NCBI GenBank assembly: GCA_965222605.1
Contig: OZ244960.1
Location: 448,001-512,000, forward strand
Length of the DNA stretch: 64,000 nt
DNA from: Candidatus Latescibacterota bacterium
Lineage (GTDB): Bacteria > Latescibacterota > UBA2968
Reading direction: 5' to 3'
Position 1 is the first letter of the stretch. Each line of letters starts with the position of its first letter. Position numbers and translations under genes: made by a program. Positions 36,249 to 48,694 of this stretch are shown here, in pieces. The notes under the pieces were generated by a model. That model saw nothing but the letters and a program-made list of their open reading frames with translations, was not told the DNA's origin and did no database searches.

Positions 36249-36420
36249 ACGCAGATGGGCGCAGATGAAAGGCAAAACCCAAAGAATCCGCAGAATGAAG
36301 GCGAGTGAGCGGTGTACAACTGGTCGCTGTCCAGACCAGTTCATTTGAGCGTTTTTCGCAGATAGACGCAGATGAAGGCGAGTGAGCGGTTTACAACTGC
36401 GACAGCAGTTCATTTGAGCA
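36237..36420. repeat. Cluster of CGCAGAT-type and hairpin repeats
   Basis: ATCCGCAGATGAACGCAGATGG.CGC.GAT, with an inverted copy at 14556-14585. Two direct copies of ATGAAGGCGAGTGAGCGGTnTACAACTG...CAGTTCATTTGAGC. Confidence 0.75.
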
Positions 36421-36442
36421 AGACGCCAGGTTGTAGCTAACT

Positions 36443-36484
36443 AAAAAATTTCACTTGACAGAGTGGAATTTTTTTCTTTATGTT
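36443..36484 (+). promoter_or_regulatory. Putative promoter of the type I RM locus with an operator-like palindrome
   Basis: TTGACA(36455)-18 nt-TATGTT. An inverted repeat AAAAAATTTCACT/AGTGGAATTTTTT brackets the -35. Confidence 0.55.
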
Positions 36485-36550
36485 GCAGGAAAGGCTTTTC
36501 TGTAATATAATTTCTCTCGCAAATGGCAACTCTTATATTTACCAGTAATT

Positions 36551-37132
36551 ATGAAATACAAACTCAAAGACATCGCCCTTGTTCAAATGGGCCTCTCCTT
36601 CCGTTCCCGTATTGAGCCGGACACGGATGGGAATGTGGCAGTCATTCAGATGCGTGATCTAACCGAAGATAAATTGAATTATGGCAATCTAATGACCATT
36701 AATATAAACGACATCAATGAACGTCATCTGGTTAAATACAAAGATATGATTTTTCGCTCTCGAGGCAAAACCACTACGGCGACAATCATTGATAAGGAAC
36801 CCGGACGGACGGTTGTCTCGGCCCCGCTATTCTTGATCCGAGTCACAAGCAAAAATGTACTTTCGGATTATCTTTGTTGGTGTATCAACCAATCCTCATC
36901 TCAAGCATTTTTACACAGCAGGGCGACCGGAACGATAATGACCATGATAGGCAAATCGGCTCTCGATGCTTTGGAAATCCCTCTCCCCAATCTGGAAATA
37001 CAGGAGCAAATCGTCACCCTCGCCGATTTGTTAAATAAGGAACAAAGGCTGATGAAAGATTTGGCAGAGCAAAAGGAAAAACTGGTCAAAGCAATTCAGA
37101 TGCAACTGGTAACTGAATCAGAAAAACCTTAA
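36551..37132 (+). CDS. Half-size HsdS-like protein (one TRD plus conserved helix)
   Basis: KLKDIA...DMIFRSRG...LEIPLPNLEIQEQIV. Confidence 0.8.
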   Translation: MKYKLKDIALVQMGLSFRSRIEPDTDGNVAVIQMRDLTEDKLNYGNLMTININDINERHLVKYKDMIFRSRGKTTTATIIDKEPGRTVVSAPLFLIRVTSKNVLSDYLCWCINQSSSQAFLHSRATGTIMTMIGKSALDALEIPLPNLEIQEQIVTLADLLNKEQRLMKDLAEQKEKLVKAIQMQLVTESEKP

Positions 37133-37161
37133 ATCACTCCCATAGAATAGGAGTTATTGAC

Positions 37162-37467
37162 ATGACTATTGGAATAGGAGGTTACAGCTTTGAAGGTCCT
37201 CTTGATGATACATCCGATCTTAGAAGCGAATCCGGAGTGTATGCCATTTTAGGGCGGCGCACGATACATCACCTCTGGACGCCTGTTGATATAGGTGCAT
37301 CGGAGGATGTGAAAAAGCGCGTAGAAAATCATGATCGAAAAAGTTGCTGGAAATCGGTAGGTTACCCCTATCAGAGTTACGCGGCTTATTACTGTAATTC
37401 AGATGACCGTACTATTATTGAGACAGAACTGCGGAATCTATATGATCCACCCTGTGGTGATCGTTAA
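37162..37467 (+). CDS. Small GIY-YIG-like nuclease-fold protein
   Basis: SGVYAIL...DIGASEDVKKRVENH...IETEL...PPC matches the GIY/YIG/R/E layout. Confidence 0.55.
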   Translation: MTIGIGGYSFEGPLDDTSDLRSESGVYAILGRRTIHHLWTPVDIGASEDVKKRVENHDRKSCWKSVGYPYQSYAAYYCNSDDRTIIETELRNLYDPPCGDR

Positions 37468-37484
37468 TAATGGAGTAACAAAAT

Positions 37485-38999
37485 ATGAATAATCAAATCC
37501 AACAAAAAGACATCAACAACGCTGCCTGGGCTGCCTGCGATACCTTTCGCGGTGTGATGGACGCAGCCGGATACAAAGATTACATCCTCGTAATGCTGTT
37601 TCTGAAATACATTTCCGATGTCTGGAAAGACCACTATGAGGAATACAAAAAAAGATACGGCGACAACGATGAACGCATCCGACGCAGGCTGGGGAATGAG
37701 CGTTTTGTATTGCCAGATGGCAGTAGCTTTTACAGCCTTTATGAGCAACGCTCGGCTGCCAATATCGGCGAACTCATCAACATCGCGCTGGAAGCGATTG
37801 AAACGGAAAACAAACAGAAACTGGAAGGTGTTTTCCGAAATATAGATTTCAACAGCGAGACAAATCTCGGCAGAACCAGAGACCGCAACCGCCGCCTGAA
37901 AACACTGCTGGAAGATTTCAACAAACCCGAATTAAATATGAGTCCCAGACGGGTTTCAGAGGATGTGATTGGCAACACCTACATCTACCTGATTGAACGT
38001 TTTGCATCTGACGCGGGGAAAAAAGCCGGTGAGTTCTACACGCCACATAAGGTATCCGAACTGGTGGCAAAACTGTGCGCTCCCAAACCCGGCGCCCGTA
38101 TCTGTGACCCCGCCTGTGGGTCTGCGGGTCTTCTTATTGAAGCCGCTCGCGTAGTGGGTGACAAAAACCACGCCCTTTACGGAATGGAAGTGAACGGTAG
38201 CACCTGGGCGTTGGCGCGTATGAATATGTTTCTGAACGGGGCCGATGCAGCCCGCATCGAATGGTGCAACACACTCACTGCCCCGGCGCTGGTGGAAGCT
38301 GACCGGCTGATGAAATTTGACAATGTGGTCGCCAATCCCCCGTTTTCGCTTAATAAGTGGGGCGCGGAAGATGCCGAGGCAGATATATACAACCGCTTCT
38401 GGCGCAGTTTGCCTCCCAAATCCAAGGGCGACTATGCGTTTATCAGCCACATGGTGGAAACGGCTTTGGAAAAACAGGGACGGGTTGCAGTTGTGGTCCC
38501 GCACGGCGTTTTGTTTCGGGGCGGCGCAGAAGGACGCATTCGCCAGCACCTCATTGAAGAAAACTTGCTCGACGCCGTCATTGGCTTGCCGGGCAATCTA
38601 TTCCCCACGACCTCAATACCAGTCGCCATTTTGGTCTTTGACCGCTCGCGTGAACAAGGGGGAGCAAATGAGAACTGCAAAGATGTTTTGTTTATCGATG
38701 CAAGCCGCGAATATCAGGCAGGCAAAAATCAAAACACATTGCTGGACGAGCACATCGAGAAAATCACCACCGCTTATAAAAAACGCCAGGATATGGACAA
38801 ATACGCCCACCTCGCCACCTTTGAAGAAATAGAGGAAAACGACTTCAACTTAAACATTCCTCGCTATGTAGATACCTTTGAAGAAGAGGAGGAGATTGAT
38901 ATTGATGCAGTACAGCTTGAGATAGAGCGATTGGAAGAGGAGTTGAGCGTGGTGCGGGGAGAGATGGGAAGATTAATGGAGGGAGTAAAACGAGCATGA
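37485..38999 (+). CDS. hsdM: Type I RM N6-adenine methyltransferase subunit M
   Basis: Motifs GEFYTP, DPACGSAG, ANPPF, PHGVLFRG and NLNIPRYV. Confidence 0.97.
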   Translation: MNNQIQQKDINNAAWAACDTFRGVMDAAGYKDYILVMLFLKYISDVWKDHYEEYKKRYGDNDERIRRRLGNERFVLPDGSSFYSLYEQRSAANIGELINIALEAIETENKQKLEGVFRNIDFNSETNLGRTRDRNRRLKTLLEDFNKPELNMSPRRVSEDVIGNTYIYLIERFASDAGKKAGEFYTPHKVSELVAKLCAPKPGARICDPACGSAGLLIEAARVVGDKNHALYGMEVNGSTWALARMNMFLNGADAARIEWCNTLTAPALVEADRLMKFDNVVANPPFSLNKWGAEDAEADIYNRFWRSLPPKSKGDYAFISHMVETALEKQGRVAVVVPHGVLFRGGAEGRIRQHLIEENLLDAVIGLPGNLFPTTSIPVAILVFDRSREQGGANENCKDVLFIDASREYQAGKNQNTLLDEHIEKITTAYKKRQDMDKYAHLATFEEIEENDFNLNIPRYVDTFEEEEEIDIDAVQLEIERLEEELSVVRGEMGRLMEGVKRA

Positions 39000-40048
39000 G
39001 CAAGAAATCCTCAAAAGATCTGACGATCCGCAGCAGCACGGCGGAATTTCTGATCTTCACCCGTCAGTCTGGTGAGGGAGGAATTGAGGTTCGCTATGAG
39101 GATGAGACCATCTGGCTGACTCAGAAGTTGATGGCAGAGTTGTTTGAAGTTACCATCCCAACGATTAACGAACATCTGAAAAACATCTTTGCGTCTGGAG
39201 AACTGACTAAAAACGCAACTGTTCGGAATTTCCGAACAGTTCAAAGGGAAGGAAATCGCGACGTAGAACGAGGTCTGGATTTCTACAATCTGGACGCCAT
39301 CATCTCGGTCGGTTATCGGGTAAACTCCAGGCGCGCCACGCAATTCCGCCAATGGGCAACCCGGGTTTTGCGCGAATTTGCGATCAAAGGCTATGTGCTG
39401 GATAAGCAGCGGTTGGAGAATGGCGCATTTCTCGGCGAGGACTATTTTGAGCGGTTGCTGGAAGAAATCCGCGAAATTCGTCTGAGCGAGCGGCGGTTTT
39501 ACCAAAAGATGACCGACATTTACGCCACCAGCATGGATTATAACAGGGATGCGCCGACCACCCGCGAGTTTTTCGCCAGAGTGCAAAACAAGCTGCATTA
39601 CGCCATTCACGGCTATACCGCAGCGGAATTGATCCGACAGCGGGCCGATAGCGGTCAGCGGCACATGGGGCTTGCCACCTGGGAGAAAGCCCCAACCGGC
39701 AAAATCCTGAAGTCTGATGTGTCTGTCGCAAAGAACTACCTGTCGAAAGAAGAACTGGAATCTCTCGGGCGTATCGTCAACGCCTATATTGACCTTGCCG
39801 AAGACCGGGCACAGCGCAAGATACCCATGACAATGGAGGACTGGTCAAAACGGCTCGATATATTTTTTGAGGCTTTTGACCGGCAGATATTGAAAGACAG
39901 CGGACAAGTCAGTGCCGAGATTGCCAAAGCCCATGCCGAAAGCGAGTTTGAGAAATATCGGATTGTTCAGGATCGTTTGTTCGAATCTGATTTTGATAGA
40001 GAAACTAAAGAATTGGAACGACAACTGGGTCGGAAAGATGAGGGGTAA
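38996..40048 (+). CDS. rhuM: Virulence RhuM family protein
   Basis: Motifs TIWLTQKLMAELF, YNLDAIISVGYRVNS, IREIRLSERRFYQK and VAKNYL. Confidence 0.9.
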   Translation: MSKKSSKDLTIRSSTAEFLIFTRQSGEGGIEVRYEDETIWLTQKLMAELFEVTIPTINEHLKNIFASGELTKNATVRNFRTVQREGNRDVERGLDFYNLDAIISVGYRVNSRRATQFRQWATRVLREFAIKGYVLDKQRLENGAFLGEDYFERLLEEIREIRLSERRFYQKMTDIYATSMDYNRDAPTTREFFARVQNKLHYAIHGYTAAELIRQRADSGQRHMGLATWEKAPTGKILKSDVSVAKNYLSKEELESLGRIVNAYIDLAEDRAQRKIPMTMEDWSKRLDIFFEAFDRQILKDSGQVSAEIAKAHAESEFEKYRIVQDRLFESDFDRETKELERQLGRKDEG

Positions 40049-40075
40049 AAACGGAGTCCTGCTGTACAACCACAC

Positions 40076-40165
40076 GGTAAATTAGAAAAGGATTCAGTTA
40101 TTTCCATTTTGGAAACAACTGCCCAAGATGGCAAAATTTACCAGACTAAGTATTACAATCTCGAT
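40076..40165 (+). pseudogene. Fragment of a second RhuM-type gene
   Basis: GKLEKDSVISILETTAQDGKIYQTKYYNLD. Confidence 0.6.
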
Positions 40166-40171
40166 AAAGAC

Positions 40172-40393
40172 ATGAGCAAGAGACCTTCAGAAAATTCTAC
40201 TGAGATTGTTAGCGAGACCGACACTTCAGATGATCGTGCGAACGGGCTTGTGCAGTTGGTCCAGTCATGGATGGATGAGGGCGATACTGGCGAACAGCGG
40301 GAAACGCTCGAGTACCTCATTCACGCTTTGGATGAAGACCGGCTATCCAGCCGTAAGCTCTTTCCAAAGAAAATGAAAGGAAAGAGTTGGTAG
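40172..40393 (+). CDS. Small acidic hypothetical protein, resembling antitoxins found upstream of PIN toxins; orphan here
   Basis: LVQSWMDEGDTGEQRETLEYLIHALDEDRLSSRKLF. Confidence 0.5.
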   Translation: MSKRPSENSTEIVSETDTSDDRANGLVQLVQSWMDEGDTGEQRETLEYLIHALDEDRLSSRKLFPKKMKGKSW

Positions 40394-40440
40394 CGTGCCT
40401 CCTACACATCCGATTGGCTGGAATACAAGGAATCTCAACA

Positions 40441-40773
40441 ATGAGAAAAATGAGAAGGTACCGCGATTTCTTGATTGAAGAACTTGCTGATGCTAAAATT
40501 GAGGAGACCCTCTCCTACCTGCAAGTCTCACTGGAAGAATACCAAAAAGACGGGTATGGCGATGTCCTGTATCTTGCTTATGAGACGGCGATTAAAGCGC
40601 AAGGCGGTGCGCGAGAATTTGCCCGAAAGACGCATAGCAATCCTCAAGACGTGGCGCAGGCGATGTCAAACAAGGACGAGACGCTGATTGCGAACATCAT
40701 CGCCCAACTGCCCGCGACGCAATGCGAGACCTCTGAAATAGAGACCGAGAAATTGCAGACGGTCAAGACCTGA
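40441..40773 (+). CDS. Addiction-module antidote (HigA-like antitoxin), copy 1
   Basis: YRDFLIEEL...YLQVSLEEY...KAQGG. Preceded by a vestigial toxin tail (WLEYKESQQ*) with ATGA overlap. Confidence 0.75.
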   Translation: MRKMRRYRDFLIEELADAKIEETLSYLQVSLEEYQKDGYGDVLYLAYETAIKAQGGAREFARKTHSNPQDVAQAMSNKDETLIANIIAQLPATQCETSEIETEKLQTVKT

Positions 40774-40809
40774 AATTGCGCCATGAGCCAAGCAGAGGGC
40801 AGATAGAGG

Positions 40810-41145
40810 ATGCTTGCTACGCAACCGAGAAAACTGCAAATTTACCAGCATTCAAATGGGCGAGAGCCTTTCACCGAATGGTTTGAGTCACGCGATCAAA
40901 AGACGCGAAGTCGGATCCGAACACGCCTTGGTCGTCTTGAAAGCGGCTATTTTATCGATTGCAAATCTATCGGCGAAGGTATTTTTGAAAGCCGTTTCCA
41001 TTTCGGAGCAGGCTATCGCATATATTTTGGTATAGTCGGCAACACCATCGTCCTGTTGCTCTGCGGCGGCGATAAGTCTTCGCAAACGCGAGACATTGGA
41101 CGCGCAAAAACCTATTGGCAAAATTACAAGGAGACCCAACGATGA
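40810..41145 (+). CDS. RelE/ParE-superfamily addiction-module killer toxin (HigB/Gp49-like), copy 1
   Basis: PFTEWF...RIRTRL.RL..G...D.KSIGEGIFE.RFHFGAGYRIYF...LLLCGGDKSSQ.RDI..A. Confidence 0.9.
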   Translation: MLATQPRKLQIYQHSNGREPFTEWFESRDQKTRSRIRTRLGRLESGYFIDCKSIGEGIFESRFHFGAGYRIYFGIVGNTIVLLLCGGDKSSQTRDIGRAKTYWQNYKETQR

Positions 41146-41468
41146 GAAAAATGAGAAATTATCGCGACTACTTAATCGAAGGGCTTTCTGACTTTGAGGA
41201 GGCCATCTCCTATCTTCAAACGGAATTGGAAGAATACCAAAAAGACGGGAATAGTGCCGCGCTTTATTACGGATTCAGTGCGGCTGTTGAAGGACAAGGC
41301 GGTACGCGAGAATTTGCCCGAAAGACGCATAGCAATCCTCAAGATGTGGCGAATGCCATGTCAAACAAGGACGAGACGCTGATTGCGAACATCATCGCCC
41401 AACTGCCCGCGACGCAATGCGAGACCTCTGAAATAGAGATCGAGAAATTGCGAGTGGTCAAGACCTGA
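41142..41468 (+). CDS. Addiction-module antidote, copy 2
   Basis: ATGA overlap with toxin 1. C-terminal half nearly identical to copy 1. Confidence 0.78.
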   Translation: MRKMRNYRDYLIEGLSDFEEAISYLQTELEEYQKDGNSAALYYGFSAAVEGQGGTREFARKTHSNPQDVANAMSNKDETLIANIIAQLPATQCETSEIEIEKLRVVKT

Positions 41469-41504
41469 AATTGCGCCATGAGCCAGGCAGAGGGCGGATA
41501 GAGG

Positions 41505-41840
41505 ATGCTTGCTACGCAACCGAGGAAACTGCAAATTTACCAGCATCCAAATGGGCGAGTGCCTTTCACTGAATGGTTGGAATCACGCGATCAAAAAACG
41601 CAGGACCGGATTCAAGAACGCCTTACCCGTCTTGCGGGCGGCAATTTTGGCGACTGGAAATCTGTCGGCGAAGGTATTTTTGAAAGCCGTTTCCATTTCG
41701 GAGCAGGCTATCGCATCTATTTTGGCATAGTCGGCAACACCATCGTCCTGCTGCTCTGCGGCGGCGATAAGTCTTCGCAAATGAGAGACATTGAACGCGC
41801 AAAAACCTATTGGCAAAATTACAAGGAAACCCAGCGATGA
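41505..41840 (+). CDS. RelE/ParE-superfamily killer toxin, copy 2
   Basis: 95/111 aa identical to copy 1. Repeat period 695 bp. Confidence 0.9.
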   Translation: MLATQPRKLQIYQHPNGRVPFTEWLESRDQKTQDRIQERLTRLAGGNFGDWKSVGEGIFESRFHFGAGYRIYFGIVGNTIVLLLCGGDKSSQMRDIERAKTYWQNYKETQR

Positions 41841-43306
41841 GACAGATGATAGATTTCAGCGACTACTTAATCGAAAAGTTTTCGGATATCGATAAAGCTC
41901 TCTCCTTCCTTAAAGTCGCATTGGAAGAGTACAAAAAAGATCCGGATGGTGCCGCGCTTTATTACGGATTCAGTGCAGCTGTTGAAGCACAAGGCGGTGT
42001 TCAAAAATTTGCACTGAAAACCCACAGTGCCCCACAAGCCGTATCGGATGCCTTGTTGAGCAAGAATGAGACGCAGATTGCTGAATTACTTAAAAAGCAG
42101 GTATTGGCAAAAAGAGGAGAGGACAAAGATATAGCGCAAAATGGGCCTTTGCCGAAGGGGTGGCGGGAAATAAAGTTGGGGGACTTGTGTTCTGATATTG
42201 CATATGGATATACTGCCACTGCAAGTAACGAACCTATCGGTCCCAAGTTTCTGAGAATTACAGATATTGTTTCAGACAGTATAAATTGGGAAAGCGTCCC
42301 ATATTGTGAAATAGAAGACAGCAAAAAACACAGGTACACATTAGAAACTGGAGATATAGTCATTGCAAGAACAGGGGCAACCACTGGATACAATCAGGTT
42401 GTAAGATCAAATGAGCATTCCGTATTTGCTTCATATCTTATTCGGTACAAATTAAGACAGGATATAGCATATCCATTTTTCATTGGTTGCGTTCTAAAAT
42501 CCACATATTGGAAACGTTTTGTAGAAAGAATCAAAGCCCGTTCTGCACAGCCAGGAGCCAATGCAAAAGATTTTGCAAGTTTCAAGATTCTCTTACCTAC
42601 ATTTTCCGAACAAAAAGCCATTGCGTCTTTACTGGAAAAATGGGACATAGCCATTGAGAAAACCGAAGCACTGATAGAGGCGAAGGAGGAGAGGTTTAAG
42701 TGGTTAATTACCAAATTGATAGCACAAAGTTGCAAGCATTGGAATCATTATAAAGCCAGCGAACTTTTTAAAAACATATCTTGTAAAGGATATCCGGACG
42801 AAGAACTACTATCCGTCACACAAGATAGAGGAGTTATCCCACGCAACATGCTTGAAGGTAGAGTGATGTCCCCTACAAGTGGAACGGATAGTTACAAATT
42901 GGTAGAACCAGGTAACTTTGTTATCAGCCTACGCTCTTTTCAGGGCGGCTTAGAGTATTCAAAATATCGGGGAATCATCAGTCCAGCATACACGGTTTTG
43001 TTGCCTAAGAAAAAAATTAATGATGACTTTTACAGACATTTCTTTAAGACCTATATCTTCGTGGAAAAGTATTTGGCACTGGCAGTTGTCGGTATTCGCG
43101 ACGGTAAGCAGATTAATTTTGAAGCTTTTAAATCTATCAAACTGCCGCTTCCCTCATTGTCAGAACAACAACGCATTGCCAAAATCCTCAACACTGCTCA
43201 ACAAGAAATAAACCTACTCAAACAACTCGCTGACCAATACCGCACACAAAAACGCGGATTGATGCAGAAATTATTAACTGGACAGTGGAGAATGAGCAAT
43301 CAATAA
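41837..43306 (+). CDS. hsdS: Antitoxin(copy 3)-HsdS fusion: antidote domain plus full two-TRD type I specificity subunit
   Basis: The first ~85 aa are homologous to antidotes 1 and 2. They are followed by LPKGWREIKLGD...EQKAIA...EQQRIAKIL...KRGLMQKLLTG with no stop in between. Confidence 0.88.
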   Translation: MRQMIDFSDYLIEKFSDIDKALSFLKVALEEYKKDPDGAALYYGFSAAVEAQGGVQKFALKTHSAPQAVSDALLSKNETQIAELLKKQVLAKRGEDKDIAQNGPLPKGWREIKLGDLCSDIAYGYTATASNEPIGPKFLRITDIVSDSINWESVPYCEIEDSKKHRYTLETGDIVIARTGATTGYNQVVRSNEHSVFASYLIRYKLRQDIAYPFFIGCVLKSTYWKRFVERIKARSAQPGANAKDFASFKILLPTFSEQKAIASLLEKWDIAIEKTEALIEAKEERFKWLITKLIAQSCKHWNHYKASELFKNISCKGYPDEELLSVTQDRGVIPRNMLEGRVMSPTSGTDSYKLVEPGNFVISLRSFQGGLEYSKYRGIISPAYTVLLPKKKINDDFYRHFFKTYIFVEKYLALAVVGIRDGKQINFEAFKSIKLPLPSLSEQQRIAKILNTAQQEINLLKQLADQYRTQKRGLMQKLLTGQWRMSNQ

Positions 43307-43318
43307 AAGGGACATTGT

Positions 43319-43777
43319 ATGAAAACAATTTATGCAATTTATACACTTTTTTTTTATCACCTTTCTCTGATGGGTTTAGGATTATATGTTCGTTTTGGAT
43401 GGTATGATTATGCACTCTGGAAGTTCAATCCTATCTGGTTAGATGTTTCATTATTTGGACTTGCGGGAGGGAGTGTTTACTGCTTACGAGGTCTCTATTT
43501 TCATTATTGTGTTGAGAAAGATTGGGACAATGTTTGGTTCGTATGGCATTTGATCCGTCCATTTGTGAGTACTGTTTGCGGCGCAGTAAGTTTGGTATTT
43601 GTTAAGGCAGGTCTATTGCTGTTCGGAGGGGCCTCAGTCGAAATGCAAAATCACTATGGAGTTTATGCCCTTGCTTTTATAGCAGGATTGAATGTTGACA
43701 ATTTCGTAAAAAAAATAGAGCTAATTTTCAAAGAAACTGTAGGGATTGAACAAACTCGAACATCAGGAGAAAAATAA
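43319..43777 (+). CDS. Small multi-pass (3-4 TM) membrane protein
   Basis: Hydrophobic helices GLAGGSVYCLRG, WHLIRPFVS and ALAFIAGL. AT-rich. Confidence 0.75.
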   Translation: MKTIYAIYTLFFYHLSLMGLGLYVRFGWYDYALWKFNPIWLDVSLFGLAGGSVYCLRGLYFHYCVEKDWDNVWFVWHLIRPFVSTVCGAVSLVFVKAGLLLFGGASVEMQNHYGVYALAFIAGLNVDNFVKKIELIFKETVGIEQTRTSGEK

Positions 43778-43779
43778 GT

Positions 43780-44664
43780 ATGAGTATTATCAAATCTTTA
43801 TCTGTAGGGAATGGGGATATGTTCTATATCAAACACAATTCAGACAATTTTTCGATAATTGACTGTTGTATGGATGAAGATGATAGAGAAGATATTGTCA
43901 AAGAATTACGGAGAGAGGCCAACGGCAAAAACATCAGAAGATTCATCTCTACGCATCCTGATGATGACCACATTAGAGGGCTTCAATATCTCAATAAGGA
44001 ATGGCCGATATTGAATTTTTACTGCGTAAAGAATGAAACCACAAAGGAAGATGAGACAGATGATTTTGATGAGTACTGTGAATTGAGAGATTCTGATAAG
44101 GCCTTTTACTTAGAAAAAGGCTGTACGCGACGTTGGATGAATCAGTCTAATGAAGAGCGAGGTAGTGCAGGTATTAATATACTTTGGCCTGTCACCAGCA
44201 ATGAGGATTACAAAAACGCCCTTCAAGAGGCGGCACAAGGTAAGAGCCCTAACAACATATCACCGATAATAAAATATTCTCTAAACGATGGAGCCAACGT
44301 ATTGTGGATGGGCGACTTAGAAACTGACTTTATGGAAAAGATTGAAGATAACGTATCGCTTGAAGAAGTTGATATCCTCTTCGCCCCCCACCACGGAAGA
44401 GACAGTGGCAAAGTGCCCAAGTCCTGGTTAGATACATTAAATCCGAAAATTATTGTTATCGGCGAAGCCCCTTCTCAACATCTAAATTACTATCAAGGTT
44501 TTGACACTATAAAACAAAATTCTGCTGGAGATATGGTATTTAAATGCGTTACGAGCGCAGTACATATCTATGTTGAAAATGAATCTTATCAAGAAGATTT
44601 TTTGAACGATGAAAACAAAGGGGACGATTACGATCTGTATTATTTAGGTACTCTAAACTTGTAA
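43780..44664 (+). CDS. ComEC/Rec2-like metallo-beta-lactamase-fold hydrolase
   Basis: Motifs SVGNGD, IIDC, THPDDDH, NNIS, MGDLE and APHHG. Confidence 0.85.
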   Translation: MSIIKSLSVGNGDMFYIKHNSDNFSIIDCCMDEDDREDIVKELRREANGKNIRRFISTHPDDDHIRGLQYLNKEWPILNFYCVKNETTKEDETDDFDEYCELRDSDKAFYLEKGCTRRWMNQSNEERGSAGINILWPVTSNEDYKNALQEAAQGKSPNNISPIIKYSLNDGANVLWMGDLETDFMEKIEDNVSLEEVDILFAPHHGRDSGKVPKSWLDTLNPKIIVIGEAPSQHLNYYQGFDTIKQNSAGDMVFKCVTSAVHIYVENESYQEDFLNDENKGDDYDLYYLGTLNL

Positions 44665-44789
44665 GCACTTAAACACGCTTCGGGAGATCAATTTAACGGC
44701 CAGACACGTCACAATTTACATTTTACTCAATACAATGAGCAAAGAAACATTCATCTACGCCTCATCCCTGCTCTCATAGGAACAACGTA

Positions 44790-47700
44790 ATGCCTACCTT
44801 CCCTTTTAGCGAAAAACATCTTTCCCAGATACCCGCTCTGCAACAGCTAATTAACATGGGCTACCGGTATCTGTCCCCCGATAAGGCGATGGTAGAACGC
44901 GGTGGGCGCGCCTCCAATGTTCTGCTGGAAAACATCTTGCGCGATCAGCTCAAAAAAATAAATCGCATTCGCTACAAAGGCGATGTGTATCTGTTCAGCG
45001 AGGAGAATATTCAATCCGCCATTCAAAAAATGAAAAATGTCCAATACGATGGCTTGCAAAAAACAAACGAAGTGATCTACGACCTGATAACGCTTGGCAC
45101 ATCACTTGAACAAACAATTGAGAGCAATTCCAAAAGTTATACCCTGAACTACATCGACTGGAAAAATCCCGCGAACAATGTTTTTCACGCCACAGCGGAA
45201 TTTTCCGTTGAACGCGCCCGCAGCATGGAAACCGCAAGGCCTGACATTGTATTATTTGTGAACGGCATTCCCCTTGTCGTAATCGAGTGCAAAGGCTCCG
45301 ATGTAGATGTGGATCAAGCCATATCTCAAACAATCCGCAATCAGGGGGAGGAATACATCCCGCGCCTTTTCATTTACGCGCAGATATTGCTGGCTATGAA
45401 CAAAAATGAGGCGAAATACGCAACAGTGGGAACCTCAAAGGCATTTTGGAGCATTTGGGACGAATTAGAGGATTCTGAGGGCGATGTGAATGCCATCATC
45501 AATAAAACCCTTTCTGCAACAGACAAAGACGCCTTGTTCCGCGGCGACTTCGCCCTGGCGCAATCGCACTTTGCCGCGCTTGAAAGCACAGGCAACCGAC
45601 TGATCACGGAACAGGATAGATGTCTTTACAATTTGTGTCGTCCAGAGCGTCTGTTGGAACTCATTTACGGCTTTATCGTCTTTGACCTTGGCATTAAGAA
45701 AATTGCCCGATACCAGCAGTTCTTTCTCGTTCGTTCCGCAATAAATCGCATTAAACAAATAGACAATACAGGACGCCGCCAGGGCGGTATTGTCTGGCAC
45801 ACACAGGGTTCTGGAAAATCCATCACAATGGTTATGCTGGCTCGTACTCTGGCTCTGGATCCAGAACTGAATAACTTCCGAATGATTCTCGTTACAGACC
45901 GCAAAGACCTGGATAAACAACTGGGCAACACCTTCGCTGCTTGTGGTCTGGATATGGAGCGGGCTACAACCGGGCGAAATCTGGTCAAACACATCAAAAA
46001 CAGGGTAGGCATCATCACGACGCTGATCAATAAATTCGACAAAGCACTTTCTGCTGAAAAATACGTTGATGATTCAGCGGATATTGTCGTCCTCGTAGAT
46101 GAAAGCCATCGCACAAACTTCGGTTCTCTTGCAGCACGCATGAGGCAGATGTTGCCAAATGCCTGTTACATCGGCTTTACGGGCACGCCATTGCTCAAAA
46201 GAGAGAAGAACAGTTTTGCCAGATTCGGAGGTCTTATTGAACCGCATTATTCCGTGCGACAGGCGATAAAAGACAAGGCAGTGGTCCCCCTGCTGTACGA
46301 AGGACGGCATGTGGAGATAGAGCAAAACGAAAACGCGGTTGATTTGTGGTTTGAACGCCATACGGCAAACCTGACAGACCAACAAAAAGCCGACTTAAAA
46401 AGAAAATATTCCCGTGCAGATGCACTCAACCAGGCAGACCAGGTCGTCTATATGCGCGCGTTTGACATAAGCGAACACTACCGAGTAAACTGGCAGGACA
46501 CCCCATTTAAGGCGCAACTTGTAGCACCCAACAAGGCGACGGCCCTGAAGTATCGAGAATTTTTCAATGAGATAAATGATGTTTCATCGGAGGTCGTCAT
46601 TTCTCCCCCGGATACGCGAGAGGGGCATGAGGAGGTCGGTGAGGAGACAGATGTGGTCAACGCGTTCTGGAACAAAATGATGGCCCGTTATGGTTCTGAG
46701 GATCAATACAACAAGCAAATCATCGCGCAGTTCAAACACGCGGACGAACCGGAAATTTTGATTGTAGTAGATAAACTCATCACCGGATTTGACGCGCCTC
46801 GCAATACCATACTCTATCTGTGCCGCAAGTTGCGCGAACACACATTGCTCCAGGCTATTGCCCGGGTTAATCGCGTGCACGAAAATAAGGAATTTGGCTA
46901 TGTCGTTGATTATGCCAATGTATTGGGTGAACTGGACAAAGCACTAAACGAATACGACGCGCTTGCGGATTTTGACAGAGAGGACCTCGCAGATGTCCTG
47001 GTCTCCATCCAGGAAGAAATACAAAAATTGCCGCAACGTTACTCAGACCTCTGGGATATATTCAAAGAAATTAAAAATTCCCGCGATGAAGAACGCTACG
47101 AAGTCCTGCTATCCGATGACGCATTGCGGGAGGATTTTTATGAACGCCTCACGGAGTACGGCAAGACTCTCGCCATCGCGCTTTCATCTGAGCAGTTCAT
47201 TATGCAAACCGACGAGGCTCAACTCAAACGCTACAAAAGCGACCTCTCGCGTTTTGTGAAACTGAGAAAGGCGGTCAGACTGCGCTACGCCGAAGCCATT
47301 GATTACGGCGACTATGACTCCCGAATTACAAAGTTGCTAAACACGCATATTCAGGCAAACGAGGTCACCCAATTAAACACCCCCGTGAATATTTTTGATG
47401 ACAATACCTCTTTTATGGTCAGAGAGACGGGGGGCATTTATCGCACCCAAAACACGGCGGCAAGTGCCGACCAGATCGCGCATGCGACCAGGCGTAAGAT
47501 TACCGAAAACATGGATAAAGACCCCGCTTTTTATGAGAAATTCTCAAAACTCATTCAGGAGGCAATCGACGATTTCAGGCAGCAACGGATATTAGCCCTG
47601 GATTATCTGCAAAAGGTGAGCGATATTCGAGATAAGGTCGAAAACACACAACGCGACGATGTCCCCGATGAGATTCGCAATAACAGTGAAGCCTGTGCGT

Positions 47701-47984
47701 ATTTTGGCGCAATTAAACCTTGTTTGTCAAAAATTGATCTGGATGAAAGCCAGACCGATGACATTGCAATAAAAACAACGCTTGCCATTCAAACCGCGAT
47801 AGACAAAAATTGGAAGGTAGATTTTTGGAACGATAGCGACGCGCAAAATACCGTAAAAAACGAGATTGATGATTTCTTTTACGATGTGGTGGAAGACGTA
47901 TATGGCATTGATTTATCGTCGGAACAGATGGACGAAATAATCAGCCAAACCATGAGGATCGCCAAATTCTGGAGGCCCGCTTAA
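44790..47984 (+). CDS. hsdR: Type I RM restriction subunit R
   Basis: Motifs RPDIVLFVNGIPLVVIECK, WHTQGSGKS, DESHR, FTGTP, TGFDAP and QAIARVNR. Confidence 0.97.
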   Translation: MPTFPFSEKHLSQIPALQQLINMGYRYLSPDKAMVERGGRASNVLLENILRDQLKKINRIRYKGDVYLFSEENIQSAIQKMKNVQYDGLQKTNEVIYDLITLGTSLEQTIESNSKSYTLNYIDWKNPANNVFHATAEFSVERARSMETARPDIVLFVNGIPLVVIECKGSDVDVDQAISQTIRNQGEEYIPRLFIYAQILLAMNKNEAKYATVGTSKAFWSIWDELEDSEGDVNAIINKTLSATDKDALFRGDFALAQSHFAALESTGNRLITEQDRCLYNLCRPERLLELIYGFIVFDLGIKKIARYQQFFLVRSAINRIKQIDNTGRRQGGIVWHTQGSGKSITMVMLARTLALDPELNNFRMILVTDRKDLDKQLGNTFAACGLDMERATTGRNLVKHIKNRVGIITTLINKFDKALSAEKYVDDSADIVVLVDESHRTNFGSLAARMRQMLPNACYIGFTGTPLLKREKNSFARFGGLIEPHYSVRQAIKDKAVVPLLYEGRHVEIEQNENAVDLWFERHTANLTDQQKADLKRKYSRADALNQADQVVYMRAFDISEHYRVNWQDTPFKAQLVAPNKATALKYREFFNEINDVSSEVVISPPDTREGHEEVGEETDVVNAFWNKMMARYGSEDQYNKQIIAQFKHADEPEILIVVDKLITGFDAPRNTILYLCRKLREHTLLQAIARVNRVHENKEFGYVVDYANVLGELDKALNEYDALADFDREDLADVLVSIQEEIQKLPQRYSDLWDIFKEIKNSRDEERYEVLLSDDALREDFYERLTEYGKTLAIALSSEQFIMQTDEAQLKRYKSDLSRFVKLRKAVRLRYAEAIDYGDYDSRITKLLNTHIQANEVTQLNTPVNIFDDNTSFMVRETGGIYRTQNTAASADQIAHATRRKITENMDKDPAFYEKFSKLIQEAIDDFRQQRILALDYLQKVSDIRDKVENTQRDDVPDEIRNNSEACAYFGAIKPCLSKIDLDESQTDDIAIKTTLAIQTAIDKNWKVDFWNDSDAQNTVKNEIDDFFYDVVEDVYGIDLSSEQMDEIISQTMRIAKFWRPA

Positions 47985-48694
47985 TGTCGGAAACTCAGCA
48001 CGCCATCACATACGCGGGCAAATCCATTCCCTTTTATCTGAGTTATTCCAACAGGAAATCTATCGAAATTGCCGTTCATCCAGATGGCTTAGTGACTGTA
48101 AAAGCACCACTGGAAACAGATAAAAACCTCATCGAGCGTCGCGTTTACAAACGCGCGCGTTGGATAAGACGCCAGATTCGCTATTTTGCACAGTTTGACC
48201 CGCGAACTCCAGAGCGGCGGTTTGTCGGAGGTGAAAGCCACCTGTACCTGGGCAAAAAGTATCGGCTAAAGATAAGACAGGCAGAAACGGACAAAGTCTT
48301 GCTAAAGCATGGATTTTTTCACATCACAACGGTTAATAACGAGCCAGAACATATCGCTATATTGCTTGAAGAATGGTACCGAAGCAAGGCGAATATTTAT
48401 TTTTTGAAAGTGTTTGAAGAATGCTGGTGTCCCTTTCAGAAAAAAGGGGTGGATAAACCCACCCTTAAAATCCGCAATATGAAAACGCGCTGGGGCAGTT
48501 TGAGCAGAAAAGGCAGCCTGACATTGAATTTGGAACTCATAAAAGCACCCAGAGAATGTATTGAATACGTCGTTATCCACGAGCTATGCCACCTGTTTCA
48601 TCCCAATCACGGGGCAGAGTTTTATAACTTGCTTGAGCGCATGCTCCCCGATTGGATAAAACGAAAGCACAAATTGGAAATGTCACTGTCTTAG
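47984..48694 (+). CDS. YgjP/DUF45 (SprT-like) zinc metalloprotease
   Basis: Motifs MKTRWGS and YVVIHELCHL..PNH. Typical hsdR neighbour. Confidence 0.9.
   Translation: MSETQHAITYAGKSIPFYLSYSNRKSIEIAVHPDGLVTVKAPLETDKNLIERRVYKRARWIRRQIRYFAQFDPRTPERRFVGGESHLYLGKKYRLKIRQAETDKVLLKHGFFHITTVNNEPEHIAILLEEWYRSKANIYFLKVFEECWCPFQKKGVDKPTLKIRNMKTRWGSLSRKGSLTLNLELIKAPRECIEYVVIHELCHLFHPNHGAEFYNLLERMLPDWIKRKHKLEMSLS

What the first reader, a model, noticed from the sequence alone, without database searches (positions are those of the whole stretch)
41505..43306. Antitoxin fused in frame to HsdS, directly behind its RelE/HigB-like toxin: a candidate toxin guard on a type I RM complex
Seen: the ORF starting at 41837 overlaps toxin 2 (ATGA) and begins with ~85 aa homologous to the two free antidotes upstream. 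A linker then leads into a complete two-TRD HsdS with no stop. Established: PrrC is a toxin held latent by the type I enzyme EcoprrI and released when phage Stp inhibits it. Inference: the cognate antitoxin of toxin 2 is part of the MTase/REase complex. Loss, degradation or phage inhibition of HsdS could then free a translation-blocking toxin, giving abortive infection or addiction to the RM specificity gene. I do not know of a described antitoxin-HsdS fusion. Caveat: an SD-like GGAGAGGA (42116-42123) lies 7 nt before an in-frame ATA (42131), so the fusion could be recent or accidental, or unfused HsdS could also be made.
Basis: partly seen in the sequence, partly recalled or inferred. Interest (0 to 1): 0.85.

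Follow-up and report, generated by a model that had tools for sequence, protein, structure and literature searches.

The report
Antitoxin fused to restriction specificity subunit
In a group of Latescibacterota bacteria the DNA-recognition subunit of a type I restriction enzyme carries, as a conserved N-terminal add-on, the antidote of the small toxin gene next to it; I found no published description, and it could tie a cell poison to the fate of the restriction enzyme.

Summary
ORF 41837-43306 (489 aa) starts in an ATGA overlap with toxin 2. It reads through an antidote domain of about 88 aa and a short linker into a complete two-TRD HsdS. The same architecture occurs in 31 protein clusters with shuffled TRDs, and in 4 of 168 Latescibacterota species genomes. 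Contigs from three DNA studies cross the junction without indels.

Unfused relatives show the likely origin. Antidote and hsdS were translationally coupled (GTGA overlap), and the fusion removed the antidote's tail and stop. The domain is under purifying selection (dN/dS 0.09-0.30). Its N-half matches the free antidote of a 94%-identical toxin. A complex model supports binding of toxin 2 through residues 1-47 (score 0.84, best control 0.02).

However, the toxin is deleted in the other 3 fused genomes with context. HsdS with the same TRDs also exists unfused.

Best reading: HsdS doubles as toxin 2's antitoxin, tying neutralisation to hsdS expression. A PrrC/Ronin-like guard is possible but untested. 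It is a new variant of a known kind.

The parts
36551..37132 (+). Half-size HsdS (one TRD, 193 aa) upstream of hsdM
   Evidence: Pfam Methylase_S E 3e-10. PADLOC Specificity_I E 3e-25. 67-92% identical across related loci.
37485..38999 (+). hsdM (504 aa)
   Evidence: Pfam N6_Mtase E 2e-101 and HsdM_N E 4e-28.
38996..40048 (+). RhuM-family gene embedded in the operon
   Evidence: Pfam Virulence_RhuM E 2e-110. PADLOC PDC-S05 E 4e-158.
40109..40393 (+). orf94. Its C-terminal ~55 aa is a portable tail that is fused to the HsdM C-terminus in other loci.
   Evidence: tblastn. HsdM-tail proteins.
40410..40440 (+). Remnant of a toxin 3' end in front of antidote 0
   Evidence: Direct repeat family D3. 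DNA alignment A6.
40441..40773 (+). Free antidote 0 (110 aa), an orphan
   Evidence: Alignments A1 and A4.
40810..41145 (+). Toxin 1 (RelE/ParE family, TIGR02683)
   Evidence: NCBIfam 107.8 bits, cut-off 62.85.
41142..41468 (+). Free antidote 1 (108 aa); ATGA overlap with toxin 1
41505..41840 (+). Toxin 2 (RelE/ParE family, TIGR02683), intact
   Evidence: NCBIfam 113.3 bits. All family-invariant residues are kept. dN/dS 0.08-0.33 against 8 relatives.
41837..41977 (+). Fusion residues 1-47: toxin-binding N-half of the antidote domain
   Evidence: All confident interface residues of chain 1 lie in 1-47. This half is near-identical to the N-half of the free antidote L026:1441-1758, whose toxin is 94% identical to toxin 2.
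41978..42100 (+). Fusion residues 48-88: C-terminal (putative helix-turn-helix) half of the antidote domain
   Evidence: Nearly invariant in 18 fused proteins. Collinear with a PF21716 member (hhalign E 7e-4). Helices at 55-61, 66-75 and 78-95 in a model with pLDDT 82.
42101..42151 (+). Fusion residues 89-105: linker, probably the former hsdS leader, holding the SD-like GGAGAGGA
   Evidence: pLDDT below 50 from residue 96. Comparison with unfused hsdS starts.
42152..43306 (+). Fusion residues 106-489: complete HsdS (TRD1, central conserved region, TRD2, C-terminal conserved region)
   Evidence: PADLOC Specificity_I covers residues 105-486, E 4e-69. Pfam PF01420 matches in two stretches. Alignment A2.
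43319..43777 (+). 152-aa ORF with hydrophobic stretches, no family hit
43780..44664 (+). Metallo-beta-lactamase-fold protein (candidate defence gene PDC-M48B)
   Evidence: PADLOC E 9e-151. Pfam Lactamase_B E 3e-6.
44790..47984 (+). hsdR (1064 aa)
   Evidence: Pfam HSDR_N, SWI2_SNF2, T1R_D3-like and ResIII.
47984..48694 (+). YgjP-like metallopeptidase gene closing the locus
   Evidence: Pfam YgjP-like E 6e-58.

Best explanation
This is a genuine, selected gene fusion. A HigA-like antidote of the HI1420 kind (residues 1-88) is joined by a short linker (about 89-105) to a complete type I specificity subunit.

Origin (inferred). The stretch between hsdM and hsdS of a Latescibacterota type I R-M operon is a hotspot filled with toxin-antidote cassettes. 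There the last antidote gene and hsdS were translationally coupled. A deletion removed the antidote's tail and stop and the hsdS start.

Mechanism (inferred). The N-half (residues 1-47) binds and neutralises toxin 2, which is encoded immediately upstream and translated in an ATGA overlap. HsdS is therefore itself toxin 2's antitoxin. This ties neutralisation of a RelE/ParE-type translation poison to continued synthesis and stability of HsdS. The expected consequences are addiction to the hsdS end of the operon, and growth arrest if host translation or HsdS is shut down.

The toxin is a dispensable, often lost passenger, and the R-M function does not need the domain.

What is shown: the architecture, its conservation, the selection on it, and its likely origin. 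What is inferred: binding (model only), neutralisation, and the physiological consequence.
For: - Architecture. The ORF and the overlap are as described. All 31 proteins found at E<=1e-3 among 378 candidates of 268-856 aa carry PF01420 behind the same N-domain, at 70-99% identity.
- TRD exchange. In an alignment of the window protein with 17 of these 31, columns 48-105 are nearly invariant, while TRD1 and TRD2 fall into several unrelated types. The fused backbone has therefore persisted through TRD exchange.
- Phyletic spread. The antidote family is found in 21 of 168 phylum genomes. It lies in an open frame of about 500 aa in 4 of them (G000, G073, G083, G143), in two families.
- Origin. In the unfused loci L005, L007, L008 and L004 the antidote stop overlaps or abuts the GTG start of hsdS. 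The corresponding codon in the fused loci is GTA or GTC.
- Selection. dN/dS for residues 48-105 is 0.085-0.30 in all six pairs of the 4 fused genes. This is like the HsdS conserved regions (0.07-0.25). Toxin 2 has dN/dS 0.08-0.33.
- Cognate pairing. The fusion's N-half matches that of the free antidote L026:1441-1758, whose toxin is 94% identical to toxin 2. 9 of the 16 differences between toxins 1 and 2 lie in the 28 predicted interface residues (one-sided Fisher p 0.004).
- Complex model. Median score 0.84, best of 3 controls 0.02. That mark was reached by 58 of 80 solved complexes and 2 of 110 mismatched pairs. The runs share at least 86% of contacts, and the partner's pLDDT is at least 85.
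- Co-occurrence. Of 15 fused sequences whose contig length was listed, 7 share that length with a member of the toxin-2 cluster (at least 90% identity). These include contigs of 13,514, 20,933 and 123,182 bp. An eighth pair is P0166 with P0009 at 691,201 bp.
Against: - In the three other fused genomes with readable context (L001, L002, L003) the toxin gene is deleted and only about 10-18 of its last codons remain.
- Their genomes hold no close toxin elsewhere. The best is 68% identical to toxin 2, in G083, and has its own antidote; G073 and G143 have only copies 47-49% identical. The domain is therefore kept without a cognate toxin.
- HsdS with the same TRDs occurs unfused: P0173 in the window protein's own 90% cluster, and 5 of 10 members of the P0002 cluster.
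- The free antidotes 0 and 1 might also neutralise toxin 2.
- The N-domain itself hits no Pfam or NCBIfam model at E<=0.01.
- The complex pass may reflect likeness to solved toxin-antitoxin complexes, and my own alignments were used.
- 8 of the 15 fused sequences show no contig-length match to a toxin. That is not proof of absence, because only the longest contig per toxin sequence and 15 of 18 cluster members were listed.
- One co-occurring toxin (P0165) is frameshifted.
Confidence: 0.6

Rival explanations
1. Guard or decoy of the PrrC/Ronin kind. Toxin 2 is held latent on the assembled methylase/restriction complex through the HsdS-borne antidote. It is released when a phage anti-restriction protein (Ocr/ArdA type) or proteolysis hits the complex, which gives abortive infection.
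For: - All the evidence for binding applies.
- The toxin lies inside a type I locus with intact hsdM and hsdR.
- Precedents exist. PrrC is embedded in EcoprrI and activated by T4 Stp (passages of PMC12707154). RonA is lethal alone, is suppressed by HsdMS and is triggered by ArdA/Ocr (passages of bioRxiv 10.1101/2023.04.06.535777).
- A second possible case occurs in the same R-M family: an HsdM C-terminal tail directly followed by a PIN-domain gene.
Against: - No trigger, no release step and no dependence on complex assembly was or could be tested.
- The toxin is lost in 3 of the 4 fused genomes with context.
- In the model the toxin contacts only residues 1-47, far from the HsdS body. Nothing suggests that the state of the R-M complex is sensed.
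- A stably tethered antidote could equally silence the toxin for good.
Confidence: 0.15
2. Regulatory add-on. The conserved C-terminal half of the domain (a putative helix-turn-helix) makes HsdS a DNA-binding autoregulator of the operon or of the cassette array. This would resemble controller proteins, or methyltransferases with an N-terminal helix-turn-helix. Toxin binding would be secondary or a relic.
For: - Residues 48-105 are the most conserved part of the domain: nearly invariant in 18 fused proteins, with dN/dS 0.085-0.30 also between the toxin-less loci.
- The domain is kept where no cognate toxin is left.
- The family is linked by profile to PF21716 members that also hit HTH_3.
- Separate regulators of type I defence islands exist: RptR (passages of PMC12255303).
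Against: - No operator was found. The intergenic gaps are 15-36 nt, and promoter-like sites are no more frequent than in shuffles (12 found, 14.0 expected).
- A helix-turn-helix fold was not confirmed by fold search.
- The N-half is also under constraint (dN/dS 0.12-0.43), and it follows the toxin type.
Confidence: 0.15
3. Near-neutral by-product. A deletion fused two coupled genes. The leader domain is kept only because it now supplies the ribosome-binding site and start codon for hsdS.
For: - The ancestral hsdS start is gone in all 4 fused loci.
- Unfused HsdS with the same TRDs evidently works elsewhere.
- Toxins decay frequently in these arrays.
Against: - Amino-acid conservation is as strong as in the HsdS conserved regions, with dS up to 0.55.
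- There are 31 clusters with many TRD combinations.
- No frameshifted or truncated N-domain appears among the 18 aligned proteins, except P0031, which starts at residue 48.
Confidence: 0.07
4. Not really fused at the protein level. An unfused HsdS is made from an internal start near the SD-like GGAGAGGA, or the junction is an assembly error.
For: The SD-like GGAGAGGA lies 7 nt before the in-frame ATA. A similar purine-rich stretch is present in L001 and L002.
Against: - No ATG, GTG or TTG lies 5-10 nt after it. The ATG at 42141 is out of frame, and the in-frame TTG at 42149 is 26 nt away.
- The motif is degraded in L003.
- Contigs from three DNA studies and one RNA-library contig cross the junction without gaps.
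Confidence: 0.03

Closest known systems
PrrC anticodon nuclease in the EcoprrI type IC locus
   Same: A translation-blocking toxin is encoded inside a type I R-M locus and is thought to be kept silent by the R-M proteins (passages of PMC12707154).
   Different: PrrC has no separate antitoxin domain, and the R-M complex itself masks it. Here a bona fide type II antidote domain is covalently part of HsdS, and the toxin belongs to the RelE/ParE family (TIGR02683), not to PrrC. No trigger is known.
Ronin (RonA with HsdM-HsdS, decoy immunity)
   Same: HsdMS suppresses a small lethal protein encoded beside it, and anti-restriction proteins release it (passages of bioRxiv 10.1101/2023.04.06.535777).
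   Different: Ronin lacks hsdR, RonA is a 61-aa membrane protein, and no antitoxin-like domain on HsdS is described. Here hsdR is intact, the toxin is soluble and RelE/ParE-like, and the binding module is a recognisable antidote domain.
Toxin-antitoxin pairs embedded in type I R-M operons, e.g. DarTG2 in the EPEC RptR-RMS-DarTG-M48 island
   Same: A TA module sits inside a type I operon, at a site described as a recombination hotspot, and a metallopeptidase gene closes the island (passages of PMC12255303). The window has a YgjP-like peptidase after hsdR.
   Different: There the toxin and the antitoxin are separate proteins between hsdS and hsdR. Here the array lies between hsdM and hsdS, and the last antidote is fused to HsdS.
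HI1419/HI1420-type addiction modules (TIGR02683 toxin with TIGR02684/PF21716 antidote)
   Same: Toxin-first gene order, a start/stop overlap, a toxin above the TIGR02683 cut-off, and an antidote linked by profile to PF21716 members.
   Different: The antidotes of this locus are a divergent branch that misses the Pfam and NCBIfam models. One copy has lost its tail and carries a 384-aa HsdS instead.
DNA methyltransferases with an N-terminal helix-turn-helix autoregulatory region (SsoII-type). Recalled, not looked up here.
   Same: A small DNA-binding domain at the N-terminus of an R-M protein.
   Different: Those domains are not antitoxins and have no toxin partner. DNA binding by the present domain is untested.

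Membership tests
Type I R-M specificity subunit (HsdS) | Two target-recognition domains of the Methylase_S type, separated and followed by conserved helical regions | tested here: met
   Pfam PF01420 in two stretches. A full-length PADLOC Specificity_I match covers residues 105-486, E 4e-69. Central and C-terminal conserved regions are present in A2.
Type I R-M specificity subunit (HsdS) | Encoded with hsdM and hsdR | tested here: met
   hsdM is 37485-38999 and hsdR is 44790-47984, each with a full domain set. The locus is syntenic in L001-L009.
Type I R-M specificity subunit (HsdS) | Directs sequence-specific m6A methylation and restriction | not testable with these tools
   No methylome or enzyme assay is available.
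HI1420-type antidote (Pfam PF21716 dnstrm_HI1420 / TIGR02684) | Scores above the family model's cut-off | tested here: not met
   No Pfam or NCBIfam hit at E<=0.01 for the free antidotes or for the fusion's N-domain.
HI1420-type antidote (Pfam PF21716 dnstrm_HI1420 / TIGR02684) | Remote homology to family members | tested here: met
   A profile of 20 antidotes of this kind finds 739 proteins at E<=1e-3. Of 15 free hits of 95-112 aa that I scanned, 12 hit PF21716 at E<=0.01 and 10 scored above its 27-bit cut-off. hhalign to the PF21716 member L005:9066-9380 is collinear over 83 columns, E 7e-4, probability 26%.
HI1420-type antidote (Pfam PF21716 dnstrm_HI1420 / TIGR02684) | Encoded directly downstream of a TIGR02683 toxin | tested here: met
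   ATGA overlaps at 41142 and 41837. Toxins score 108 and 113 bits against TIGR02683.
HI1420-type antidote (Pfam PF21716 dnstrm_HI1420 / TIGR02684) | Helix-turn-helix fold in the C-terminal half | tested here: inconclusive
   The model is all-helical with pLDDT 82. Foldseek against PDB gave no match at E<=0.001. VIA-align wide gave a best Z of 6.6, to generic helical bundles.
Type II toxin-antitoxin system | The antitoxin binds its toxin | tested here: inconclusive
   Prediction only. Score 0.84 against a best control of 0.02; the mark was reached by 58 of 80 solved and 2 of 110 mismatched pairs; contacts agree at 86% or more; partner pLDDT is 85 or more. It may reflect likeness to solved complexes.
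Type II toxin-antitoxin system | The toxin is toxic and is rescued by the antitoxin; the antitoxin is more labile than the toxin | not testable with these tools
   Needs expression and stability assays.
PrrC/EcoprrI-type R-M guard | The toxin is homologous to PrrC (ABC-type ATPase plus anticodon nuclease) | tested here: not met
   Toxin 2 is 111 aa. It hits only TIGR02683 and, weakly, Pfam Gp49 (E 6e-4).
PrrC/EcoprrI-type R-M guard | The toxin is silent while the R-M complex is intact and is activated by an anti-restriction factor | not testable with these tools
Ronin decoy system | hsdM and hsdS without hsdR, plus a small membrane toxin RonA | tested here: not met
   An intact 1064-aa hsdR lies in the locus. 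Toxin 2 is a RelE/ParE-family protein.

The most novel reading that the evidence does not exclude
In this Latescibacterota type I R-M family the methylase core is itself the antitoxin. HsdS carries a HigA-like antidote for a RelE/ParE toxin. In sister loci HsdM carries a C-terminal tail that neutralises the PIN-domain toxin encoded right behind it. Toxins would then ride on the R-M complex and be freed when phage anti-restriction proteins, proteolysis or loss of the operon remove the complex. That would be a covalent, modular version of the PrrC/Ronin guard principle, with exchangeable toxin plus N-half cassettes.
Probability: 0.15. Interest if true: 0.85.

Novelty: new variant of a known kind. 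Interest (0 to 1): 0.62.

Why it matters
Toxin-antitoxin modules inside type I R-M operons are known, and so are toxins silenced by R-M proteins (PrrC, Ronin). In those cases, how the toxin is physically coupled to the R-M machinery is hard to see from sequence. Here the coupling is written into one polypeptide: a recognisable antidote domain on HsdS, with its toxin translated in overlap.

This gives a simple test system. Express toxin 2 with or without the fusion and HsdM, then add Ocr/ArdA or phage. The result would show whether R-M complexes can serve as scaffolds for abortive-infection toxins.

The family also shows how cassette hotspots in defence operons create new domain architectures. 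A toxin and the matching antidote N-half are exchanged together, much as TRDs are.

If the domain only regulates expression or is a relic, the finding is still a clean example of gene fusion through lost translational coupling.

Tried and rejected
- AlphaFold2 of the full 489-aa fusion, with 18 sequences, gave pLDDT 52. It was too poor to place the N-domain relative to the HsdS body.
- Fold searches with the N-domain model (pLDDT 82) gave no specific match: no Foldseek PDB hit at E<=0.001, and a best VIA-align wide Z of 6.6 to generic helical bundles. The fold is therefore neither confirmed as a helix-turn-helix nor shown to be new.
- A sequence profile of the antidotes against PDB chains gave only chance matches to designed TPR proteins (E 0.2-0.7).
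- PADLOC has no model for the toxin or the free antidote.
- Promoter-like and terminator-like sites in 36000-45000 are no more frequent than in shuffles (12 against 14.0; 10 against 10.1). No operator was identified.
- The metagenome scan gave only 3 loci from 410 pattern matches, all of the unfused kind.
- The protein atlas gave no usable hit for orf94.
- Earlier findings of this scan: nothing to show.
- PMC6211672 holds both 'HsdS' and 'HigA', but only in separate gene tables.
- Internal start at the SD-like motif: rejected for lack of a canonical start codon and of conservation in L003.
- RNA evidence is weak. One 192-nt contig of an RNA library (X15) crosses 42016-42180 with 13 substitutions and no gaps, then runs into a different TRD. 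It comes from another strain, and the library may hold DNA.
Contig-length matching is an indirect substitute.
Full report
THE OBSERVATION

The plus strand between 36.5 and 48.7 kb carries one type I R-M locus. In order it holds:
- a half-size hsdS (36551-37132);
- hsdM (37485-38999);
- a RhuM-family gene (38996-40048);
- orf94 (40109-40393);
- a free antidote (40441-40773);
- toxin 1 (40810-41145);
- antidote 1 (41142-41468);
- toxin 2 (41505-41840);
- a 489-aa ORF (41837-43306);
- a small ORF;
- a metallo-beta-lactamase-fold gene (PADLOC PDC-M48B);
- hsdR (44790-47984);
- a YgjP-like peptidase gene.

The 489-aa ORF starts in an ATGA overlap with toxin 2. Its first 88 residues align without gaps to the free antidotes, at 50% and 42% identity. 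Residues 105-486 match a full-length type I specificity model. Both toxins score above the TIGR02683 cut-off. The toxin-antidote units form a 695-bp tandem repeat.

NOT AN ARTEFACT, NOT AN ACCIDENT

Contigs from public runs of three DNA studies cross the junction (42060-42150) without any insertion or deletion. One RNA-library contig from another strain does so too.

I searched the first 100 residues against proteins of 268-856 aa. This gave 31 hits at E<=1e-3 among 378 candidates. All carry Methylase_S, and all are 70-99% identical in the N-domain.

In an alignment of the window protein with 17 of these 31, residues 48-105 and the two HsdS conserved regions are nearly invariant. TRD1 and TRD2 fall into several unrelated types in different combinations. 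The fused backbone has therefore been kept while specificities were exchanged.

Among 168 species-level genomes of the phylum, 21 have the antidote family at E<=1e-10. Four have it in an open frame of about 500 aa: the window's genome, two of the same genus, and one of another family. The named records are all Candidatus Latescibacterota assemblies except one 'uncultured bacterium'.

HOW THE FUSION AROSE

Related loci share hsdM, hsdR and the peptidase gene. hsdM is 86-97% identical and hsdR 76-96%. Between hsdM and hsdS they carry a changing set of cassettes: RelE/ParE-type toxins with their antidotes, orphan antidotes behind toxin remnants, RhuM, BrnT, a PIN protein, a DnaJ-domain protein and a PD-(D/E)XK protein.

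In L005, L007, L008 and L004 the last antidote and hsdS are separate genes. The antidote's stop overlaps or abuts the GTG start of hsdS (GTGA, or TAG followed by GTG two bases later). The two genes were therefore translationally coupled.

In the four fused genes the antidote's tail of roughly 20-30 residues and its stop are missing. The codon at the position of that GTG is GTA or GTC. The stretch that follows contains the SD-like GGAGAGGA and then rejoins the HsdS N-terminus at the conserved motif before TRD1.

In the window's own genus, unfused hsdS genes start with ATG six codons before that motif, with a G-rich ribosome-binding site 9-10 nt upstream.
- no ATG, GTG or TTG lies at a usable distance;
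- the only nearby ATG (42141) is out of frame;
- the purine run is degraded in L003.

The exact breakpoints cannot be fixed. They lie between about residues 86 and 99.

WHAT THE DOMAIN IS

The antidotes of this locus miss the Pfam and NCBIfam models. A profile of 20 of them, searched over 1.84 billion representatives, finds 739 proteins at E<=1e-3.

I scanned 15 free hits of 95-112 aa. Twelve hit PF21716 (dnstrm_HI1420) at E<=0.01, and ten score above its cut-off. PF21716 is the known partner family of TIGR02683 toxins. A profile-to-sequence comparison with a PF21716 member from L005 is collinear (E 7e-4).

A model of the domain alone (pLDDT 82) has six helices and a disordered end from residue 96. 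Fold searches were not specific.

The N-half is a module in its own right:
- elsewhere in the same genome it is joined to a TPR-like C-terminus behind another toxin (L021);
- one representative joins the N-half to DUF4268;
- another representative (P0285) joins a PF21716 antidote domain to DUF4238.

Among the best 150 hits only two are fused HsdS representatives, both of this family.

DOES IT STILL SERVE TOXIN 2?

Toxin 2 is intact. It keeps all residues that are invariant in 14 relatives, and its dN/dS is 0.08-0.33.

The antidote domains are mosaics with a switch point near residue 48. The window fusion's N-half is almost the same as that of a free antidote in G081 (L026:1441-1758), whose toxin is 94% identical to toxin 2. 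The N-half of the L001 fusion equals that of another free antidote (L036:1501-1818). A toxin and the matching N-half thus appear to travel together and to be swapped in front of a constant C-terminal half.

Toxins 1 and 2 differ at 16 positions. Nine of these lie among the 28 residues that the complex model places at the interface (p 0.004). No such enrichment is seen on the antidote side (12 of 39, p 0.42).

The complex model of residues 1-110 with toxin 2 scores 0.84, against 0.02 for the best of three controls. That mark was reached by 58 of 80 solved complexes and 2 of 110 mismatched pairs. The runs agree in at least 86% of contacts, and the partner's pLDDT is at least 85. All confident contacts of the fusion lie in residues 1-47. 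This supports binding but does not show it, and it may owe something to solved toxin-antitoxin complexes.

IS THE TOXIN ALWAYS THERE?

No. In the three other fused genomes the toxin gene is deleted. In L001 and L003 the 3' end of an upstream antidote is joined to the last 45 bases or so of a toxin. In L002 (and in front of the window's antidote 0) the end of orf94 is joined to the last 30 bases or so. That makes two junction types, so at least two deletion events.

These genomes hold no close toxin elsewhere. G083 has one that is 68% identical, with its own antidote. G073 and G143 have only copies 47-49% identical.

Protein-level data nevertheless show that the window's arrangement recurs. Of 15 fused sequences whose contig length was listed, 7 share it with a member of the toxin-2 cluster. 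Three of these contigs are 13.5, 20.9 and 123 kb long, and an eighth pair shares 691,201 bp. One of those toxins is frameshifted (P0165). The remaining 8 give no match, which is not evidence of absence, because only the longest contig per toxin sequence and 15 of 18 cluster members were listed.

IS THE DOMAIN NEEDED FOR R-M?

Evidently not. The window protein's own 90% cluster contains an unfused 397-aa member, and 5 of 10 members of the P0002 cluster are unfused (387-398 aa). All start six residues before the conserved motif and carry the same TRDs.

The domain is nonetheless constrained. dN/dS for residues 48-105 is 0.085-0.30 in all six pairs, including pairs of toxin-less genes with dS 0.19-0.55. 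The values for the N-half are 0.12-0.43, and for the HsdS conserved regions 0.07-0.25. The N-half figures compare recombinant alleles and should be read loosely.

MOST LIKELY MECHANISM

HsdS doubles as the antitoxin of toxin 2. The two are made from overlapping reading frames, and the N-half captures the toxin. Neutralisation therefore depends on continued production and stability of HsdS. This would stabilise the hsdS end of a recombination-prone operon, and it would arrest growth when translation is shut off.

The architecture, its spread, the selection on it and its likely origin are shown. Binding is predicted only. Neutralisation and the physiological effect are inferred. I put this at 0.6.

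The frequent loss of the toxin shows at least that the fusion does not depend on it.

A regulatory role of the conserved C-terminal half (0.15) would explain why the domain is kept without a toxin, but it lacks any identified operator. A neutral leader (0.07) fits poorly with the amino-acid conservation. An artefact or an internal start (0.03) is contradicted.

COMPARISON AND NOVELTY

TA modules embedded in type I operons are described, for example DarTG2 between hsdS and hsdR with a closing M48 peptidase. So are toxins silenced by R-M proteins.

Five full-text searches found no antitoxin-HsdS fusion:
- HsdS, antitoxin, fusion;
- type I R-M, TA, hsdM, hsdS, abortive infection;
- HsdS, HigA;
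- specificity subunit, antitoxin, fused, type I restriction, N-terminal domain;
- Ocr, HsdS, abortive infection, decoy, anti-restriction.

I read only search listings and passages, not whole papers. I rate the finding a new variant of a known kind.

A PARALLEL WORTH FOLLOWING

The C-terminal 55 residues or so of orf94 are fused to the C-terminus of HsdM (554 aa) in L005, L007 and L008. There they are followed, with overlapping stop and start, by a PIN-domain gene (Pfam E 6e-6). A free orf94 followed by a PIN gene occurs in L030.

The tail is found on 8 HsdM clusters, one of them with 254 members, and on 6 clusters of unrelated proteins of 325-360 aa. This could be a second antitoxin carried by an R-M subunit. 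Alternatively the tail may only mark the junctions at which cassettes are exchanged, because fragments of it flank cassettes in L005 and L011. Binding was not tested.

Noticed in passing
window 40109-40393; L007:7334-9444; L008:7108-9218; L005:5018-7125; L030:2286-2887: The C-terminal ~55 aa of orf94 is a portable tail. It is fused to the HsdM C-terminus (554-aa HsdM) in three loci and is directly followed by a PIN-domain gene. A free orf94 plus a PIN gene occurs in L030. The tail also ends 6 clusters of non-HsdM proteins of 325-360 aa. It may be a second antitoxin on an R-M subunit; binding was not tested.
   Followed up: partly
window 36551-37132: A half-size HsdS (one TRD) upstream of hsdM is conserved at 67-92% identity across related loci, whereas the downstream full-length HsdS varies. 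Its role beside the full HsdS is unclear.
   Followed up: no
window 43319-44664 and 38996-40048: Other candidate defence genes are embedded in the operon: a metallo-beta-lactamase-fold protein matching PADLOC PDC-M48B (E 9e-151), preceded by a 152-aa hydrophobic ORF without hits, and a RhuM protein matching PDC-S05.
   Followed up: no
L021:1166-2007 (own genome, C1 about 5.746 Mb): A second toxin of the same family (about 66% identical to toxin 2) is followed by an antidote whose N-half is joined to a TPR-like C-terminus instead of the usual half. Representatives P0285 (PF21716 plus DUF4238) and P0279 (N-half plus DUF4268) show further fusions.
   Followed up: partly
window 40586-40885 versus 41281-41580: The 3' half of the antidote genes, the spacer and the toxin 5' end are 93% identical between repeat units, while the interface-coding parts are 54-72% identical. 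This looks like gene conversion with protected specificity regions.
   Followed up: partly
L001:10214-10304; L003:10283-10373; L002:9934-10024; window 40374-40464: Toxin genes were deleted at two kinds of junction: antidote tail joined to the toxin 3' end, and orf94 end joined to the toxin 3' end. The last 30-45 bases before the next start codon are always kept. This stretch probably holds the ribosome-binding site of the following gene.
   Followed up: partly
L002:11468-15697; L006:11161-15066: A 1,409-aa (L002) or 1,301-aa (L006) ORF directly after hsdS, between hsdS and hsdR. The L002 protein has no Pfam hit at E<=0.01; the L006 protein was not scanned.
   Followed up: no
window 42016-42180 (run X15): A 192-nt contig from an RNA library labelled sponge metagenome crosses the antidote-HsdS junction of a related strain and continues into a different TRD1. 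It is a weak hint of transcription, because the library may contain DNA.
   Followed up: no
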